Below are positions 18,901 to 59,010 of a stretch of DNA of 64,000 bases, piece by piece (within the stretch, counting starts at the first letter, position 1; every line of letters begins with the position of its first letter). Source of the DNA: Mobula hypostoma (lineage: Eukaryota). The notes under the pieces were generated by a model that saw only the letters and a list, made by a program, of their open reading frames with translations, was not told the DNA's origin and made no database searches. The translations under genes and the position numbers were made by a program. Location of the stretch: assembly GCF_963921235.1 (NCBI RefSeq), contig NC_086097.1:122948001-123012000 (forward strand), read 5' to 3'.

Positions 18901-19909
18901 ATGTCAACTATATTAAATAACTCAAAGGCAGTGGAGAAAATACAAATTAATTTATTCTTCAACACCTACATTGCAACGTATTAAATCTGCAGTGGCTCCT
19001 GGCTAGGGAACAATTGCCATAAAATATGACTATTTCAAGCAGGACAAGTAGTTTTTTTTTGGAACAGACTGAATTAGCTGGTTTGAATTTATGAACAAGT
19101 TCTTGAGGTGGGGGAGGAATGGTATAAAATTACCTGGAACTCTATTTTTATTGTAATGATATCAGTACTTCACCTGAAAGACTGTGGTAGTTAAGAAGAC
19201 AGCCTGCCTCCACCTTCATGAGAATACTTGTTATGTAGAGGCCATGTCTCTGGGTATATTTAAGGAGGAGGTTGATAGATTCTTAATTAGTAAGGGCATC
19301 AAAGGTTACAGAAGACAGAAAAATGTGGTTGAAAAGGAAAATAAATCAGCCATGATTGAATGGTGGACCAGACTTAATGGACCAATTGGCCTAATTCTGC
19401 TCCTATGTCTTATGATCTTATCACATGCCTATCAACAAATTGGGGTAGAGTTTGGTTTGTATAGAACCCGAACAGTAGGGACATCAAACCAAACCTCTAT
19501 CAAGGACAAAGGTAGGAACAGACAATGTGGAAAAGTATTTTAAGAGGGGGAGGGCCAATTATGATGATATTAGGCAGGTTCTTGTTTGCATAAATTGAAA
19601 ACCAATATTCTTAAGGAAATGTACAAACAGAAATGTGGAGGTTGTTTAGGGAGCACTTACATTGGGTTCTGGATAGGTTTGTCTCACTGAGACAGGGAAA
19701 AGATGGTAGGGTGAAAGAATCATGTTTGACAAAGGAGGTGGAACAATTAGTTGAGAGGAAGAAGAAGGTATACTTAAGGCTGAAGTATCACAATTGAGAG
19801 AGTCTTTGACAAATGCGAGAACACTGTAGAACAGGCTAATATGCTAGAGCAAGTTGAGGCTGAGAAAGGAGTATTGTTGGAGCTGCTGAAAAACATTAGG
19901 GTAGTTAAG

Positions 19910-20044
19910 CAACACACACAAAAATTGCTGGTGAACGCAGCAGGCCAGGCAGCATCTCTAGGAAGAGGTACAGTCGACGTTTCGGGCTGAGACCCTTCGT
20001 CAGTACTAATTGAAAGAAGAGATAGTAAGAGATTTGAAAGTGGG
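19910..20044 (-). mobile_element. Solo Penelope 3' terminal fragment with hammerhead motif
   Basis: Close copy of 34045-34180; flanked by AGGGTAGTTAAG (19898-19909) and AGGATAGTTAAG (20045-20056). Confidence 0.85.
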
Positions 20045-20065
20045 AGGATAGTTAAGTCCCCAGGG

Positions 20066-25437: not shown

Positions 25438-25989
25438 CACTAGTGACCATTTTATTAGGTACATCAGTACACCTGCTTGTTAATGCAAATATCTAATCAG
25501 CCAGTCATATGGTAGCAACTCATTGCATAAAAGCATACAGACATGGTCAAGACATTTAGTTGTTGTTCAGACCAAATATCAGAACAGGGAAGAAATGTGA
25601 TCTAAGTGACCTTGACCGACCGTGGAATGATTGTTGGTGCCAGAGTATCTCAGGAAACTGCTGATCTCCTGGGATTTTCAGGCACAACAGTCTCTAGAGT
25701 TTACAGAGAATAGTGTGAAAAACAAAAAAAAACACCCAGTGAGAGGCAGTTCTGTGAGCAAAAAATGCCTTGTTAATGAGAGATGACAGAGGAGAATATT
25801 CAGACTGGTTCAAGCTGACAGTAATTCAAATAACCATGCATTACAACGGTGGTGCGCAGAAGAGCATCTCAGAACACACAACAGGTTGAACCTGCATATG
25901 GATGGGCTACATCAGCGGAGACCACAAACATACACTCAGTAGACATTTTATTAGATATAGAGGGTACCTAATAAAGTGGCCATTGAGTG
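25438..25989 (+). mobile_element. Non-autonomous Tc1 deletion derivative
   Basis: Same TIR and N-terminal transposase as 3852 and 6329 copies; ends in a TIR-TIR hairpin at 25933-25989. Confidence 0.8.
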
Positions 25990-27100
25990 CGTTCAACACC
26001 ATCTGCCCTGCCCCACTGGGGGAGAAGCTGACAGCGATGCAGGTGGATGCTTTCCTGGTATCATGGATTCTTGATTACCCGACTGGCAGACCACAGTACA
26101 TGTGCTTGCAACACTGTGTGTCCGACAGAGTGATCAGCAGCACTGGGGCTCCACAGGGAACTGTCTTGTCTCCCTTTCTCTTCACCATTTACACCTCGGA
26201 CTTCAACTACTGCACAGAGTCTTGTCATCTTCAGAAGTTTTCTGATGACTCTGCCATAGTTGGATGCATCAGCAAAGGAGGTGAGGCTGAGTACAGGGCT
26301 ACGGTAGGAAACTTTGTCACATGGTGTGAGCAGAATTATCTGCAGCTTAATGTGAAAAACACTAAGGAGCTGGTGGTAGACCCGAGGAGAGCTAAGGTAC
26401 CGGTGACCCCTGTTTCCATCCAGAGTGTCAGTGTGGACATGGTGGAGGATTACAAATACCTAGGGATACGAATTGACAAACTGGACTGGTCAACGAACAC
26501 TGAGGCTGTCTACAAGAAGGGTCAGAGCCGTCTCTATTTCCTGAGGAGACTGAGGTCCTTTAACATCTACCGGACGATGCTGAGGATGTTCTACGAGTCT
26601 GTGGTGGCCAGTGCTATCATGTTTGTTGTTATGTGCTGGGGCAGCAGACTGAGGGTTGCAGACACCAGCAGAATCAACAGACTCATTTGTAAGGCCAGTG
26701 ATGTTGTGGGGATGGAACTGGACTCTCTGACGGTGGTGTCTGAAAAGAGGATGCTGTCCAAGTTGCATGCCATCTTGGACAATGTCTCCCATCCACTACA
26801 TAATGTACTGGTTGGGCACAGGAGTACATTCAGCCAGAGACTCATTCCACCGAGATGCAACACTGAGCGTCATAGGAAGTCATTCCTGCCTGTGGCCATC
26901 AAACTTTACAACTCCTCCCTTGGAGGGTCAGACACCCTGAGCCAATAGGCTGGTCCTGGACTTATTTCCTGGCATAATTTACATATTATTATTTAACAAT
27001 TTATGATTTTATTACTATTTAATTATTTATAGTGCAACTGTAACAAAAACCAATTTCTCCCGGGATCAATAAAGTATGACTATGACTATGACTATGACTA
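25988..27100 (+). mobile_element. Young 5'-truncated Rex1/Babar LINE
   Basis: Open frame SAFNT...GAPQGTVLSP...KFSDDS...RLYFLRRL...SFLPVAIKLYN to stop at 26948; AATAAA plus (ACTATG)n tail. Confidence 0.9.
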
Positions 27101-33243: not shown

Positions 33244-33712
33244 ATAAGTTATGCCAGTGATAAGGAATAAAGTATTAGAGAATCTCAAGGTGGAAAAATC
33301 CCGGAGTCTGCAACCACGGCTTTTAAAGGAAGAGGCTGTGGTGACAGTGGGCTCATTTGTCAAAAAAATTCAAAACTCACTAAATTCTGGGAGGGTACCA
33401 ATAGATTGGAAAACAGCCAAGGAAGACAGAAGGCAGTGAACTCCCTGCCAATTAGTTTAAAATCTATCTTGGCAAGATGCTGTCAATAATCAAAGAGGAA
33501 ATACCTAATCTATTAGGAAACGCACAGATAATCAAACTTGCTCAGCATGACCTTATGAAAGGTAAATCACACTTAACAAATTGGCTTGAACTCTTCAAAG
33601 ATGTGTCAGGGAGGGTTGATAGAGGGGAACCTGGAGATGTGGGGTATTTAGAATTCTAAAAGGCATTTGATGAGCAGCCATATACGAGGTTGGTCCATAA
33701 AATTTGGAGGAA

Positions 33713-33939
33713 CACACACCAAATGCTGTAGGATCTCAGCAGGCCAGGCAGCATCTATGAAGAAGTATAGTCGATATTTCAGGACAAGACCCTTCATCAG
33801 GATATCCTGATGAAGAATCTCGGTCCGAAACATCGACTGTTCTCTTTTCCATAGGTGTTCCCTGGTCTGCTGAGTTCTTCCACCATTGTGTAGGCTTTGC
33901 TTGGATTTCCAGCATCTGCAGATTTTCTCTTGTTTAAGT
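33713..33939. mobile_element. Palindromic mini-Penelope with two back-to-back hammerhead motifs
   Basis: Centre CTTCATCAGGATATCCTGATGAAG (33792-33815); arms are opposite-orientation PLE 3' ends; TTTGGAGGAA at 33703-33712 and 33940-33949. Confidence 0.85.
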
Positions 33940-34106
33940 TTTGGAGGAAGTGTGTTAGCAGAACTTGAAAATTGGCAGCTGCATAGAAAACAGAGTTGTG
34001 ATAAATGGAAACAACAGGAATTCTGCAGATGCTGGAAATTCAAGCAACATACATCAAAGTTGCTGGTGAACGCAGCAGGCCAGGCAGCATCTATAGGAAG
34101 AGGCGC

Positions 34107-34142
34107 AGTCGACGTTTCAGGCCGAGACCCTTCGTCAGGACT
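34107..34142 (-). ncRNA. Minimal type I hammerhead ribozyme (left arm)
   Basis: Reverse complement of 37573-37608. Confidence 0.8.
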
Positions 34143-34430
34143 AACTGAAGGAAGAGTGAGTAAGGGATTTGAAAGCTGGAGGGGGAGGGGGAGATGCAAA
34201 ATGATAGGAGAAGACAGGAGGGGGAGGGATGGAGCCGAGAGCTGGACAGGTGATAGGCAGAAGGGGATACGAGAGGATCATGGGACAGGAGGTCCAGGAA
34301 GAAAGACGGGGGGGGGGGTGACCCAGAGGATGGGCAAGAGGTATATTCAGAGGGACAGAGGGAGAAAAAGGAGAGTGAGAGAAAGAATGTGTGCATGAGT
34401 AACAGATGGGGTACGAGGGGGAGGTGGGGC

Positions 34431-35603
34431 CTAGCGGAAGTTAGAGAAGTCAATGTTCATGCCATCAGGTTGGAGGCTACCCAGACGGAATATAAGGTGT
34501 TGTTCCTCCAACCTGAGTGTGGCTTCATCTTTACAGTAGAGGAGGCCGTGGATAGACATGTCAGAATGGGAATGGGATGTGGAATTAAAATGTGTGGCCA
34601 CTGGGAGATCCTGCTTTCTCTGGCGGACAGAGCGTAGATGTTCAGCAAAGCGGTCTCCCAGTCTGCGTCGGGTCTCACCAATATATAAAAGGCCACATCG
34701 GGAGCACCGGACGCAGTATATCACCCCAGTCGACTCACAGGTGAAGTGATGCCTCACCTGGAAGGACTGTTTGGGGCCCTGAATGGTGGTAAGGGAGGAA
34801 GTGTAAGGGCATGTGTAGCACTTGTTCCGCTTACACGGATAAGTGCCAGGAGGGAGATCAGTGGGGAGGGATGGGGGGGACGAATGGACAAGGGAGTTGT
34901 GTAGGGAGCGATCCCTGCGGAATGCAGAGAGAGGCGGGGAGGGAAAGATATGCTTAGTGGTGGGATCCCGTTGGAGGTGGCGGAAGTTACGGAGAATAAT
35001 ATGTTGGACCCGGAGGCTGGTGGGGTGGTAGGTGAGGACCAGGGGAACCCTATTCCTAGTGGGGTGGTGGGAGGATGGAGTGAGAGCAGATGTACGTGAA
35101 ATGGGGGAGATGCGTTTAAGAGCAGAGTTGATAGTGGAGGAAGGGAAGCCCCTTTCTTTAAAAAATGAAGACATCTCCCTCGTCCTAGAATGAAAAGCCT
35201 CATCCTGAGAGCAGATGCGGCGGAGACGGAGGAATTGCGAGAAGGGGATGGCGTTTTTGCAAGAGACAGGGTGAGAAGAGGAATAGTCCAGATAGTTGTG
35301 AGAGTCAGTAGGCTTATAGTAGACATCAGTGGATAAGCTGTCTCCAGAGACAGAGACAGAAAGATCTAGAAAGGGGAGGGAGGTGTCAGAAATGGACCAG
35401 GTAAACTTGAGGGCAGGGTGAAAGTTGGAGGCAAAGTTAATAAAGTTAACGAGTTCTGCATGCGTGCAGGAAGCAGCGCCAATGCAGTCGTCGATGTAGC
35501 GAAGGAAAAGTGGGGGACAGATACCAGAATAGGCACGGAACATAGATTGTTCCACAAACCCAACAAAAAGGCAGGCATAGCTAGGACCCATACGGGTGCC
35601 CAT
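34431..35603 (-). CDS. PLE RT C-terminal half plus GIY-YIG endonuclease (inverted, 5'-truncated copy)
   Basis: 390-aa translation identical to the C-terminus of the + copy. Confidence 0.85.
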   Translation of the reverse strand: MGTRMGPSYACLFVGFVEQSMFRAYSGICPPLFLRYIDDCIGAASCTHAELVNFINFASNFHPALKFTWSISDTSLPFLDLSVSVSGDSLSTDVYYKPTDSHNYLDYSSSHPVSCKNAIPFSQFLRLRRICSQDEAFHSRTREMSSFFKERGFPSSTINSALKRISPISRTSALTPSSHHPTRNRVPLVLTYHPTSLRVQHIILRNFRHLQRDPTTKHIFPSPPLSAFRRDRSLHNSLVHSSPPSLPTDLPPGTYPCKRNKCYTCPYTSSLTTIQGPKQSFQVRHHFTCESTGVIYCVRCSRCGLLYIGETRRRLGDRFAEHLRSVRQRKQDLPVATHFNSTSHSHSDMSIHGLLYCKDEATLRLEEQHLIFRLGSLQPDGMNIDFSNFR

Positions 35604-35632
35604 AGCTACACCTTTAGTTTGGAGGAAATGGG

Positions 35633-37277
35633 CTTTATCCGCTCAGGGGATCTCCCATCCACTGCTACCAACCTTATAGTTCCCACATCCCGCACTTCCC
35701 GTTTCTACCTCCTACCCAAGATCCACAAACCTGCCTGTCCTGGCCGACCTATTGTCTCAGCTTGCTCCTGCCCCACCGAACTCGTTTCTGCATACCTCGA
35801 CACTGTTTTATCACCCCTTGTTCAATCCCTTCCGACCTATGTTCGTGACACTTCTCACGCTCTTAAACTTTTCGATGATTTTAAGTTCCCTGGCCCCCAC
35901 CGCTTTATTTTCACCTTGGATGTCCAGTCCCTATATACTTCCATCCCCCATCAGGAAGGTCTCAAAGCTCTACGCTTCTTTTTGGATTCCAGACCTAATC
36001 AGTTCCCCTCTACCACCACTCTGCTCCGTCTAGCAGAATTAGTCCTTACTCTTAATAATTTCTCCTTTTGCTCCTCCCATTTCCTCCAAACTAAAGGTGT
36101 AGCTATGGGCACCCGTATGGGTCCTAGCTATGCCTGCCTTTTTGTTGGGTTTGTGGAACAATCTATGTTCCGTGCCTATTCTGGTATCTGTCCCCCACTT
36201 TTCCTTCGCTACATCGACGACTGCATTGGCGCTGCTTCCTGCACGCATGCAGAACTCGTTAACTTTATTAACTTTGCCTCCAACTTTCACCCTGCCCTCA
36301 AGTTTACCTGGTCCATTTCTGACACCTCCCTCCCCTTTCTAGATCTTTCTGTCTCTGTCTCTGGAGACAGCTTATCCACTGATGTCTACTATAAGCCTAC
36401 TGACTCTCACAACTATCTGGACTATTCCTCTTCTCACCCTGTCTCTTGCAAAAACGCCATCCCCTTCTCGCAATTCCTCCGTCTCCGCCGCATCTGCTCT
36501 CAGGATGAGGCTTTTCATTCTAGGACGAGGGAGATGTCTTCATTTTTTAAAGAAAGGGGCTTCCCTTCCTCCACTATCAACTCTGCTCTTAAACGCATCT
36601 CCCCCATTTCACGTACATCTGCTCTCACTCCATCCTCCCACCACCCCACTAGGAATAGGGTTCCCCTGGTCCTCACCTACCACCCCACCAGCCTCCGGGT
36701 CCAACATATTATTCTCCGTAACTTCCGCCACCTCCAACGGGATCCCACCACTAAGCATATCTTTCCCTCCCCGCCTCTCTCTGCATTCCGCAGGGATCGC
36801 TCCCTACACAACTCCCTTGTCCATTCGTCCCCCCCATCCCTCCCCACTGATCTCCCTCCTGGCACTTATCCGTGTAAGCGGAACAAGTGCTACACATGCC
36901 CTTACACTTCCTCCCTTACCACCATTCAGGGCCCCAAACAGTCCTTCCAGGTGAGGCATCACTTCACCTGTGAGTCGACTGGGGTGATATACTGCGTCCG
37001 GTGCTCCCGATGTGGCCTTTTATATATTGGTGAGACCCGACGCAGACTGGGAGACCGCTTTGCTGAACATCTACGCTCTGTCCGCCAGAGAAAGCAGGAT
37101 CTCCCAGTGGCCACACATTTTAATTCCACATCCCATTCCCATTCTGACATGTCTATCCACGGCCTCCTCTACTGTAAAGATGAAGCCACACTCAGGTTGG
37201 AGGAACAACACCTTATATTCCGTCTGGGTAGCCTCCAACCTGATGGCATGAACATTGACTTCTCTAACTTCCGCTAG
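35633..37277 (+). CDS. PLE reverse transcriptase plus GIY-YIG endonuclease (5'-truncated, uninterrupted frame)
   Basis: LPKIHK, GRPIVS, LDVQSLYTSIP, GVAMGT, RYIDD, FLD, Cys linker PCKRNKCYTC, VIYCVRC..C...YIGET.R.L..RF.EH. Confidence 0.93.
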
Positions 37278-37572
37278 GCCCCACCTCCCCCTCGTACCCC
37301 ATCTGTTACTCTTTTTAATGCACACATTCTTTCTCTCACTCTCCTTTTTCTCCCTCTGTCCCTCTGAATATACCTCTTGCCCATCCTCTGGGTCACCCGC
37401 CCCCCCCGTCTTTCTTCCCGGACCTCCTGTCCCATGATCCTCTCGTATCCCCTTCTGCCTATCACCTGTCCAGCTCTCGGCTCCATCCCTTCCCCTCCTG
37501 TCTTCTCCTATCATTTTGCATCTCCCCCTCCCCCTCCAGCTTTCAAATCCCTTACTCACTCTTCCTTCAGTT

Positions 37573-37608
37573 AGTCCTGACGAAGGGTCTCGGCCTGAAA
37601 CGTCGACT
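37573..37608 (+). ncRNA. Minimal type I hammerhead ribozyme (right arm)
   Basis: AGTC-CTGACGA-AGG(GTCTCGG)CCT-GAAA-CGTC-GACT: helix I AGTC/GACT, conserved core, helix II, palindromic ACGT in place of helix III; predicted cleavage after C37604. Confidence 0.82.
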
Positions 37609-37859
37609 GCGCCTCTTCCTATAGATGCTGCCTGGCCTGCTGCGTTCACCAGCAACTTTGATGTATGTTGTGATAAATGGGCCCTTTTTAGGCTGGAGAG
37701 ATGTAACTAACCATGTGTCCCTGGGATCAGTTCTAGGTCTTCAATTGTTTACTGACTTCCTTAATGACATGGAAGAGGGAAGGAATTGGAAGACTTCCAA
37801 GGTTGTTGAGAGAAAAAAAATGGTGAAAGGGTATGTTACAATGAGAACATTGTGATTCA

Positions 37860-58334: not shown

Positions 58335-59010
58335 TTAAACACAAGAGATTCTGCTGATGCTAGAGATCCTGAGGAACACAAAAAGTGCTGGAGGAAGCCA
58401 GCAGGTAAGTCAGTGTCTACGGAGAGGAATGAACAGTCGAGGTTTTGGGATGAGACCCTTCATCAGGACTGGAAAGGAAAGAAGAAGAAGCCAAAATAAA
58501 AAGGTGGGCAGGGGAAGGAGTACAAGCCGGCAGTTGATAGGTCACAGCAAGTGGGGGGGGAGGTGGATGGGTGGGGGAGGGGTTGAAATGAGAAGCTGGG
58601 AGGTAATAGGTGGAAGAAGTAAAGGGCTTAAGGAGAAAGCATCTGATTGGAGAGGACAGTGAACCATGGGAGAAAAGAAGCAGGAAGGGCACCAGGCGGG
58701 TAGAAGGGAAGGAGTAAGAGGAGAGCCAGAATGGGGAATTGAAAATCAGAGAGAAGGGAAAGGAGAAGAAATGACCTTAAATTAGAGAAATCAATTTTTA
58801 TACCATCAGATTAGAGGCTACCCAGATGGAATATGAGGTGTTGCTCCTCTAACCTGAAAGTGGCCTCATCATGGCAGTAGAGGAGGCCATGGACTGACAT
58901 GTCGGAATGGGAATAGAAATGGGAAGTAGAATCAAAATGGATAGCCACCGGGAAATCTCGCTGTAGTATTGGACAGAGTGAAGGTGCTTGATGAAGAGGT
59001 CCCCTCAACC
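58335..59010 (-). mobile_element. Old Penelope 3' end with tail and mutated hammerhead
   Basis: ORF 58811..59008 (HSDMSVHGLLYCHDEATFRLEEQHLIF) matches the PLE C-terminus; hammerhead remnant at 58435-58470. Confidence 0.82.

What the first reader, a model, noticed from the sequence alone, without database searches (positions are those of the whole stretch)
37573..37608. Minimal hammerhead ribozymes in both arms, probably acting as dimers
Seen: a complete CUGAnGA/GAAA core with helices I and II, and only palindromic ACGU where helix III should be; the mirror copy is at 34107-34142. Established: PLE pLTRs carry minimal hammerheads lacking helix III, proposed to cleave as dimers. Inference: the two copies are on opposite strands, so one transcript holds only one sense motif and cleavage would need a trans partner, possibly one of the many solo copies.
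Basis: partly seen in the sequence, partly recalled or inferred. Interest (0 to 1): 0.7.

Follow-up and report, generated by a model that had tools for sequence, protein, structure and literature searches.

The report
Mirror hammerheads in truncated Penelope insertion
These two mirror-image motifs are the already described minimal self-cutting RNA signature of a Penelope-type jumping gene, most likely copied twice when one shortened element landed; the family likely cuts its RNA in pairs, but this particular copy is probably inactive, so the finding is ordinary.

Summary
Identical minimal type I hammerheads lie at 37572-37609 (+) and 34106-34143 (-), with the predicted cut after C37604 and C34111. 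Both belong to one 3.66-kb Penelope-like insertion (34009-37670). It has a 5'-truncated RT + GIY-YIG gene, a 1.6-kb inverted arm with a 36-nt tail, and a 10-14 bp target duplication. The closest proteins come from rays.

Related elements (33-63% protein identity) carry the same motif. Helices I and II covary, and a palindrome replaces helix III in 31 of 35 motifs, in 7 different words. This supports dimer action for the family, as published in 2014.

The idea that solo copies act as trans partners is not needed. Relatives carry sense copies upstream of the ORF, and one has sense copies on both sides. None of 7 solo copies in the window is intact. This copy has G·U at the conserved G10.1-C11.1 pair, its arms are complementary, and both arms read through the cut site. 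No cleavage or RNA-end data were obtained.

The scan has noted the same layout before, in this genome and in others. Verdict: a new member of a known kind, low interest.

The parts
37572..37609 (+). Minimal type I hammerhead, right arm; predicted cut after C37604; G·U at pair 10.1-11.1 (37585/37596)
34106..34143 (-). Identical minimal hammerhead in the inverted left arm; C17 = 34111
37600..37603 (+). Palindromic ACGU in place of helix III (predicted dimer interface)
   Evidence: palindrome in 31 of 35 related motifs
35633..37670 (+). Sense part of the PLE: 5'-truncated ORF plus 3' UTR/pLTR, ending 66 nt after C17
35628..37277 (+). 549-aa open frame with RT (YIDD), CX4CxxC linker and GIY-YIG endonuclease. 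Its ATG lies in the inverted arm. It lacks about 300-400 N-terminal residues, including the DKG motif
   Evidence: (Pfam RVT_1 E 1.5e-5 and GIY-YIG E 5e-4, both below the curated cut-offs)
34045..35632 (-). Inverted arm, copy of 36076-37670 (99.4% identical; 2 substitutions, 2 indels)
34009..34044 (-). 36-nt tail present on the left arm only, ending 102 nt after C17
   Evidence: same continuation seen as loose ends behind 37670
33995..34008 (+). Left target-site duplication (14 bp)
37667..37680 (+). Right target-site duplication; its first 4 bases also match the element end (microhomology), so the duplication is 10-14 bp
33701..33935 (.). Older, decayed head-to-head pLTR pair next to the element (cores at 33800 - and 33807 +); neither passes the descriptor
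19907..20047 (-). Best-kept solo pLTR (88% identical): core, helix II with G-C and the ACGUC site are intact; the closing pair of helix I is broken

Best explanation
The two motifs are mirror copies of one minimal hammerhead sequence at the ends of a single truncated Penelope-like insertion, most likely copied twice from the element's RNA during landing; the family's motif likely cuts as a dimer through its ACGU palindrome, probably with the second same-strand copy of a parent-type transcript, while this copy is probably inactive. Shown by sequence or calls: both motifs; one insertion with inverted arms, a one-sided tail and a target duplication; a 5'-truncated RT + GIY-YIG frame; covariation and palindrome retention in relatives; same-strand motifs flanking a full ORF in L013; both arms contain sequence on both sides of the cut site. 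Inferred: (1) the endonuclease nicked both target strands 10-14 bp apart, each 3' end primed a cDNA (66 and 102 nt downstream of C17), and the two cDNAs were joined at 35632/35633; (2) the template was therefore uncut, or re-ligated, at this ribozyme; (3) in parent transcripts two motifs pair ACGU with ACGU to supply helix III, probably with help from the element's protein; (4) here a read-through RNA would fold back into a 1.6-kb duplex that buries the motif, and the G·U pair likely weakens it further.
For: Single insertion: 14-bp direct repeat at both ends; the two flanks translate as overlapping halves of one RT-like reading frame, sharing VIN. Same layout in relatives: of 6 related loci with two motifs, 5 are inverted and 1 direct; 4 of the 5 inverted pairs show a 10-16 bp direct repeat near unequal arm ends. 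Selection on the motif, tested without requiring pairing: 22 of 49 C-terminal ends have the core within 450 nt (21 of 40 with at least 300 nt of room), against 74 of 1618 tiles overall; in 19 non-redundant motifs the first three helix I pairs form in 19, 19 and 18, and the first four score 66 against a permuted mean of 37.4, maximum 55 of 5000. On 16 hand-picked motifs, 93.8% of cells pair and 7 of 8 pairs change on both sides; slid controls give 20-41%. Palindrome, which the descriptor did not require: 31 of 35 motifs, 7 words. Cis partner: L013 has motifs at 269 and 3421 in 358-nt direct repeats around a 936-codon frame; L011 and L016 have a sense motif upstream of the ORF. This copy: U at 11.1, against C in 34 of 35 related motifs; sense-antisense duplex -80.2 kcal/mol against -11.5 for the active dimer fold. 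Papers: PMC4209133, PMC11167929, PMC3846280, PMC8557442.
Against: No cleavage, transcript or RNA end was observed; the only RNA-like run laid was contigs and its RNA status is a guess. No parent-type tandem copy was seen in this genome, because no genome is held; the cis-partner evidence comes from distant relatives. 27 of 49 related C-terminal ends show no core within 450 nt, which may be decay or true loss. The related motifs fall into roughly nine families, so the counts are not independent events. How common U11.1 is in this family is unknown, and I found no measurement of its effect; the expected loss of activity rests on conservation and recalled mutagenesis. Folding models ignore the tertiary core and disfavour the active dimer even in isolation (-11.5 against -30.3). 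In PMC11167929 a single-motif PLE RNA was cut with protein help, and dimer dependence is not tested in the part I read.
Confidence: 0.72

Rival explanations
1. One reading: the motifs at this locus are active and are cut in trans by pairing with transcripts of solo copies.
For: The family is very abundant (234,372 contigs of one DNA run laid on 861 bases; not a copy number), so partners exist in principle. The solo copy at 19907-20047 keeps an intact ACGUC site and 3' helix I strand.
Against: 0 of 7 window solo copies pass the descriptor. A 4-bp palindrome is a weak trans contact, and a mirror arm in the same RNA would win by a wide margin. Activity is low even for tandem constructs (PMC4209133). 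The locus has no upstream pLTR.
Confidence: 0.06
2. The motif cuts as a protein-assisted monomer, like the Anolis Poseidon hammerhead; the element's protein holds the fold and dimers are incidental.
For: In PMC11167929 the PAc motif cut only with protein, and endonuclease mutants still allowed cleavage. The isolated active-like fold has a predicted probability of 0.0006 here.
Against: It does not explain why the helix III word stays palindromic across 7 different words and lengths of 4, 6 and 8 nt. Two RNAs on a protein dimer could also explain the PAc result.
Confidence: 0.1
3. The palindrome links two template RNAs on a dimeric element protein, one for each nicked DNA strand, and that is why inverted arms are so common; cutting is secondary.
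For: Both arms start at fixed points just 3' of an uncut motif. Inverted pairs outnumber direct pairs 5 to 1 among related loci. PAc extends both strands and is predicted to be a dimer. All 4 arm differences lie within 180 bp of the 3' UTR, none in the inner 1236 bp.
Against: Naiad elements lack canonical hammerheads yet form inverted arms and tails (PMC8557442). Three of the 4 differences sit in homopolymer runs and one at a CpG. One RNA with two start sites also explains the arms. Short contigs bias against seeing direct pairs 3 kb apart.
Confidence: 0.08
4. The motif is a passenger with no role for the element, kept only because it rides in the part that is always copied.
For: Hammerhead mutants did not affect insertion in vitro, and no reads ended at the cut site in Anolis. 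PMC8557442 raises the idea that hammerheads parasitise PLEs. This copy was inserted with U11.1 in both arms.
Against: Invariant core and compensatory changes across elements with 33-63% protein identity need selection on the RNA fold.
Confidence: 0.04

Closest known systems
Minimal type I hammerheads (min-HHR) of metazoan Penelope-like elements (Cervera and De la Pena 2014, PMC4209133; parts 1-2 of 4 read)
   Same: CUGANGA/GAAA core, short helix I, unpaired base 5' of helix II, palindromic 15.2-16.2, location in the pLTR, mostly solo copies. The paper also reports dual motifs on opposite strands 100-700 bp apart.
   Different: G·U instead of the conserved G10.1-C11.1; helix II of 4 bp; motifs about 3.4 kb apart. 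The text I read names fishes, coelacanth, Xenopus and reptiles but no ray; its supplements were not opened and may list one.
EN+ PLE insertions with inverted pLTR, tail and TSD (Adineta Pen2/Pen2a, PMC3846280; scheme in PMC8557442; passages read)
   Same: Inverted 5'-truncated copy at the 5' end, 30-40 bp tail on one arm (36 here), TSD of 9-10 bp there and 10-14 bp here.
   Different: The arm is long (1.6 kb, reaching into the RT) and there is no direct upstream pLTR.
Poseidon element of Anolis carolinensis, PAc (Frangieh et al. 2024, PMC11167929; parts 1-2 of 4 read)
   Same: Two fixed copy ends downstream of the hammerhead that bracket the tail; template not cut at the ribozyme.
   Different: PAc is of the Penelope/Poseidon clade and its ORF starts inside the hammerhead. 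This element has a CX4CxxC linker, and in the relative L013 the first ATG lies about 130 nt after C17.
Non-LTR retrozymes of animals (PMC7229834, passages; bioRxiv 10.64898/2026.07.22.740005, part 1 of 5 and passages)
   Same: Type I hammerheads with a palindromic helix III, thought to act as dimers and to derive from PLE pLTRs.
   Different: Retrozymes are non-coding tandem repeats; this is a coding PLE with inverted arms.

Membership tests
PLE minimal hammerhead (min-HHR) | Core C3-U4-G5-A6-N7-G8-A9 and G12-A13-A14 | tested here: met
PLE minimal hammerhead (min-HHR) | Helix I of 4-5 bp, open-ended (type I) | tested here: met
   4 Watson-Crick pairs plus U·G; covaries in relatives
PLE minimal hammerhead (min-HHR) | Helix II with an unpaired base after A9 | tested here: met
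   A37584, then 4 pairs; A in 18 of 19 relatives
PLE minimal hammerhead (min-HHR) | G10.1-C11.1 closing pair (highly conserved, not part of the published descriptor) | tested here: not met
   G·U in both arms; C in 34 of 35 related motifs and C at that place in 4 of 7 window solo copies. Read as a decayed or variant copy of a family that meets it
PLE minimal hammerhead (min-HHR) | No helix III; palindrome at 15.1-16.1, then H17 | tested here: met
   ACGU then C; palindromic in 31 of 35 relatives
PLE minimal hammerhead (min-HHR) | Lies in the pLTR of a PLE | tested here: met
   core starts 300 nt after the ORF stop; 93-330 nt after the C-terminal match in 22 of 49 related ends
PLE minimal hammerhead (min-HHR) | Self-cleavage as a dimer | not testable with these tools
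   no raw RNA reads of this organism were offered; contigs show no ends
EN+ Penelope-like element | One ORF with RT and C-terminal GIY-YIG endonuclease | tested here: met
   (both Pfam scores below cut-off)
EN+ Penelope-like element | pLTRs direct or inverted, optional 30-40 bp tail, TSD | tested here: met
Neptune clade | CX2-5CxxC linker between RT and EN | tested here: met
   CX4CxxC at residue 416; a matching pattern in the C-terminal 220 aa of 31 of 31 long relatives, where the pattern is loose; definition from PMC8557442
Neptune clade | Placement in the RT tree against reference Neptune and Nematis sequences | not tested
Non-LTR retrozyme | Non-coding tandem repeats with a hammerhead in each unit | tested here: not met
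   coding element with inverted arms

The most novel reading that the evidence does not exclude
The hammerhead palindrome is an RNA dimer link: it pairs two template RNAs on a dimeric Penelope protein so that both nicked DNA strands are primed at once, one at each start site, and inverted arms like these are the direct footprint of two-RNA integration. That would give the ribozyme a role in insertion and explain the head-to-head layout. I did not see it stated in the papers read.
Probability: 0.08. Interest if true: 0.7.

Novelty: new member of a known kind. Interest (0 to 1): 0.17.

Why it matters
As it stands it adds a ray example to a motif and a layout that are both published. Its modest value is as a clean, young record of insertion: the target duplication, the two copy ends 36 nt apart and the read-through of the cut site agree with the in vitro results on the Anolis element, in another PLE clade. 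What PLE hammerheads do in vivo is still open. The range of palindromes found here suggests a simple heterodimer test of the dimer model.

Tried and rejected
Whole-genome census: no genome is held. Rfam: 0 matches at gathering thresholds, so no curated family covers the motif at that level. Viral contigs: the DNA pattern gave 2 loci that fail the descriptor and look like chance; the protein search gave none. Reads: two raw-read runs of other organisms gave 2 and 0 reads and are no test; X1 may be the source sample; table 6 listed no start or end sites, which contigs cannot show anyway; only 40 of 143 variant rows were shown and none fell in 37573-37608, which I do not count as evidence. Family-wide variation inside the motif remains unmeasured. 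Empty-site test by BLAST of each flank against the window found no copy spanning the site; the overlap of the translated flanks was used instead. Folding stability is no support: z from -0.30 to -0.78 for sense sequences. A function for the antisense motif was rejected (no core; z +0.91). A working protein from 35628-37277 is unlikely: it lacks 296-407 N-terminal residues and DKG, which 31 of 31 long relatives have. The pLTR and tail showed no convincing match to N-termini of relatives. Lünse et al. on dimer cleavage is not held; I know it only by its title and a review's summary. A search for shark or ray PLE hammerheads returned only papers on hammerhead sharks and other elasmobranchs, so absence from print is not established. 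No measurement for G10.1·U11.1 was found.

Full report
Observation. The motif is there as described. On the + strand, helix I is 37573-37576 with 37605-37608 (plus U·G 37572-37609), CUGACGA is 37577-37583, an unpaired A is at 37584, helix II is 37585-37588 with 37593-37596, GAA is 37597-37599, the palindrome ACGU is 37600-37603 and C17 is 37604. The copy at 34107-34142 (-) is identical. A structural descriptor finds only these 2 sites in the window; 100 shuffles gave a mean of 0.04. Rfam has no match at gathering thresholds. The isolated motif is no more stable than shuffles and is predicted to fold into an inactive rod; the active-like monomer fold has a probability of 0.0006.

The element. 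Both motifs belong to one insertion, 34009-37670. The sense part, 35633-37670, encodes RT with YIDD, a CX4CxxC linker and a GIY-YIG endonuclease (both Pfam scores are below the curated cut-offs). It lacks 296-407 N-terminal residues and the DKG motif that 31 of 31 long relatives have. The closest proteins are from Mobula and Hypanus (up to 95% identity over part of the length), so the host is probably a ray. The left arm, 34045-35632, is an inverted copy of 36076-37670 with 2 substitutions and 2 indels, and it carries a 36-nt tail at 34009-34044. A 14-bp direct repeat flanks the whole; its first 4 bases also match the element end. The two flanks translate as overlapping halves of one RT-like frame (the CR1-type LINE label is recalled and comes from no call), so the repeat is a true target duplication. 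The arms end 66 and 102 nt after C17. Both contain sequence on both sides of the cut site, so the template was uncut or re-ligated there (inference). This fits the Anolis element, which extends both DNA strands, starts at two sites that bracket the tail, and does not need its hammerhead for insertion in vitro (PMC11167929, parts 1-2 of 4). The layout itself is described in PMC3846280 and PMC8557442 (passages).

Is the motif under selection? The descriptor found 35 motifs in 29 of the 91 loci held; 10 shuffles gave 0-1 hits each. Because that descriptor demands pairing, I repeated the test on the core alone. It lies within 450 nt of 22 of 49 C-terminal ends, against 74 of 1618 tiles overall; 27 ends had none. 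In 19 non-redundant motifs the first three helix I pairs form in 19, 19 and 18 cases with A-U, U-A, C-G and G-C swaps, and the four-pair score is 66 against a permuted maximum of 55. On 16 hand-picked motifs, 7 of 8 pairs change on both sides and slid controls fall to 20-41% paired (this set was chosen with pairing in view, and the count of pairs with double changes alone was reached by 119 of 500 shuffles). These motifs form roughly nine families, so the counts are not independent.

Dimer evidence. The descriptor did not require a palindrome, yet 31 of 35 motifs have one, in 7 words of 4, 6 or 8 nt; 2 of the 4 exceptions look like CpG decay of ACGT. In the core-only set it is 16 of 19. Keeping self-complementarity while the word changes is what pairing between two copies predicts. 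This is the published model: in PMC4209133 (parts 1-2 of 4) a Schistosoma monomer did not cut and dimers cut weakly; a review says the same and cites Lünse et al., which I could not read. A 2026 preprint saw cleavage in 1 of 9 Xenopus retrozyme dimers (passage).

Who is the partner? Among related loci with two motifs, 5 are inverted like this one and 1 is direct. Four of the 5 inverted pairs show a 10-16 bp direct repeat near unequal arm ends; L004 shows none. The direct case, L013, has motifs at 269 and 3421 in 358-nt direct repeats around a 936-codon frame. L011 and L016 have a sense motif upstream of the ORF start, L011 as a partial tandem; L031 is unclear. Parent-type elements therefore hold two sense motifs in one RNA, and no solo partner is needed. 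I could not show such a parent in this genome. In the window, none of 7 solo copies examined is intact: the best, at 19907-20047, has a broken closing pair in helix I, two have lost G12, and the rest are further decayed.

This copy. It has no upstream pLTR. Pair 10.1-11.1 is G·U in both arms, where 34 of 35 related motifs have C. In window copies that dinucleotide reads CG in 2, CA in 2 and TG in 2, with 1 unreadable, the pattern of CpG decay; so U was probably already in the source element. I found no measurement of its effect. A read-through RNA in either direction would fold back over 1.6 kb; for the motif alone the sense-antisense duplex is -80.2 kcal/mol against -11.5 for the active dimer. 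Cleavage here is unlikely but untested. The read data show a very abundant family (234,372 contigs laid, not a copy number), the tail as the usual continuation behind 37670, and many contigs whose likeness begins at 37573; they cannot show RNA ends.

Verdict. The trans-partner inference for this locus is unnecessary and weakly supported. Earlier notes of this scan report the same layout in this window, elsewhere in this genome and in other genomes; they are unchecked AI notes and are not counted as support. New member of a known kind, interest 0.17. The boldest open reading, that the palindrome links two template RNAs, gets 0.08, mainly because hammerhead-less Naiads also form inverted arms. 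Supplements of PMC4209133 and PMC11167929 were not opened, and those of the bioRxiv preprint are closed; they may list cartilaginous-fish motifs.

Noticed in passing
window 37312-37491 against 34224-34396: All 4 differences between the arms lie within 180 bp of the 3' UTR, none in the inner 1236 bp (chance about 0.003 for the distal 359 bp if uniform). Three sit in homopolymer runs and one at a CpG. Slippage, assembly error, conversion of the inner hairpin or two templates could explain it.
   Followed up: partly
window 33701-33935: An older head-to-head pLTR pair, joined at a palindrome just 5' of the two cores, lies about 60 bp from the target site in the same decayed RT-like sequence.
   Followed up: partly
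window 37550-37576; also the copies at 58466 (-) and 4659 (-): A pyrimidine tract and AG lie just before or in the 5' strand of helix I, like a 3' splice site. In Drosophila virilis Penelope the intron ends at the 5' end of helix I. In the young copy this stretch is also predicted to pair with the 5' half of the core.
   Followed up: no
window 37573: 626 contigs of run X1 have loose ends before this base, and summed depth more than doubles here: likeness among divergent or truncated copies often begins at the front edge of the ribozyme.
   Followed up: no
window 35628-37277: The inverted arm supplies an in-frame ATG and an 86-codon open extension, giving a 635-codon stop-to-stop frame that could be mistaken for a full-length ORF.
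   Followed up: yes
L083-L089, L090, L091: Animal-type PLEs, several with hammerheads, sit in three genomes filed as bacterial MAGs; seven loci come from one assembly, which suggests host contamination.
   Followed up: no
L090 after 2575: A related element's hammerhead is followed by a short run of telomere-like repeats at the contig end.
   Followed up: no
proteins P0001, P0004: Ray gene models named as a kinase-domain and a chitinase-domain isoform match this PLE over 68-83% of the query; probably annotation run-ins or exonised copies.
   Followed up: no
window 25890-26948: A 352-codon frame matches both RVT_1 and ALKBH8_N above Pfam cut-offs; probably another retroelement.
   Followed up: no
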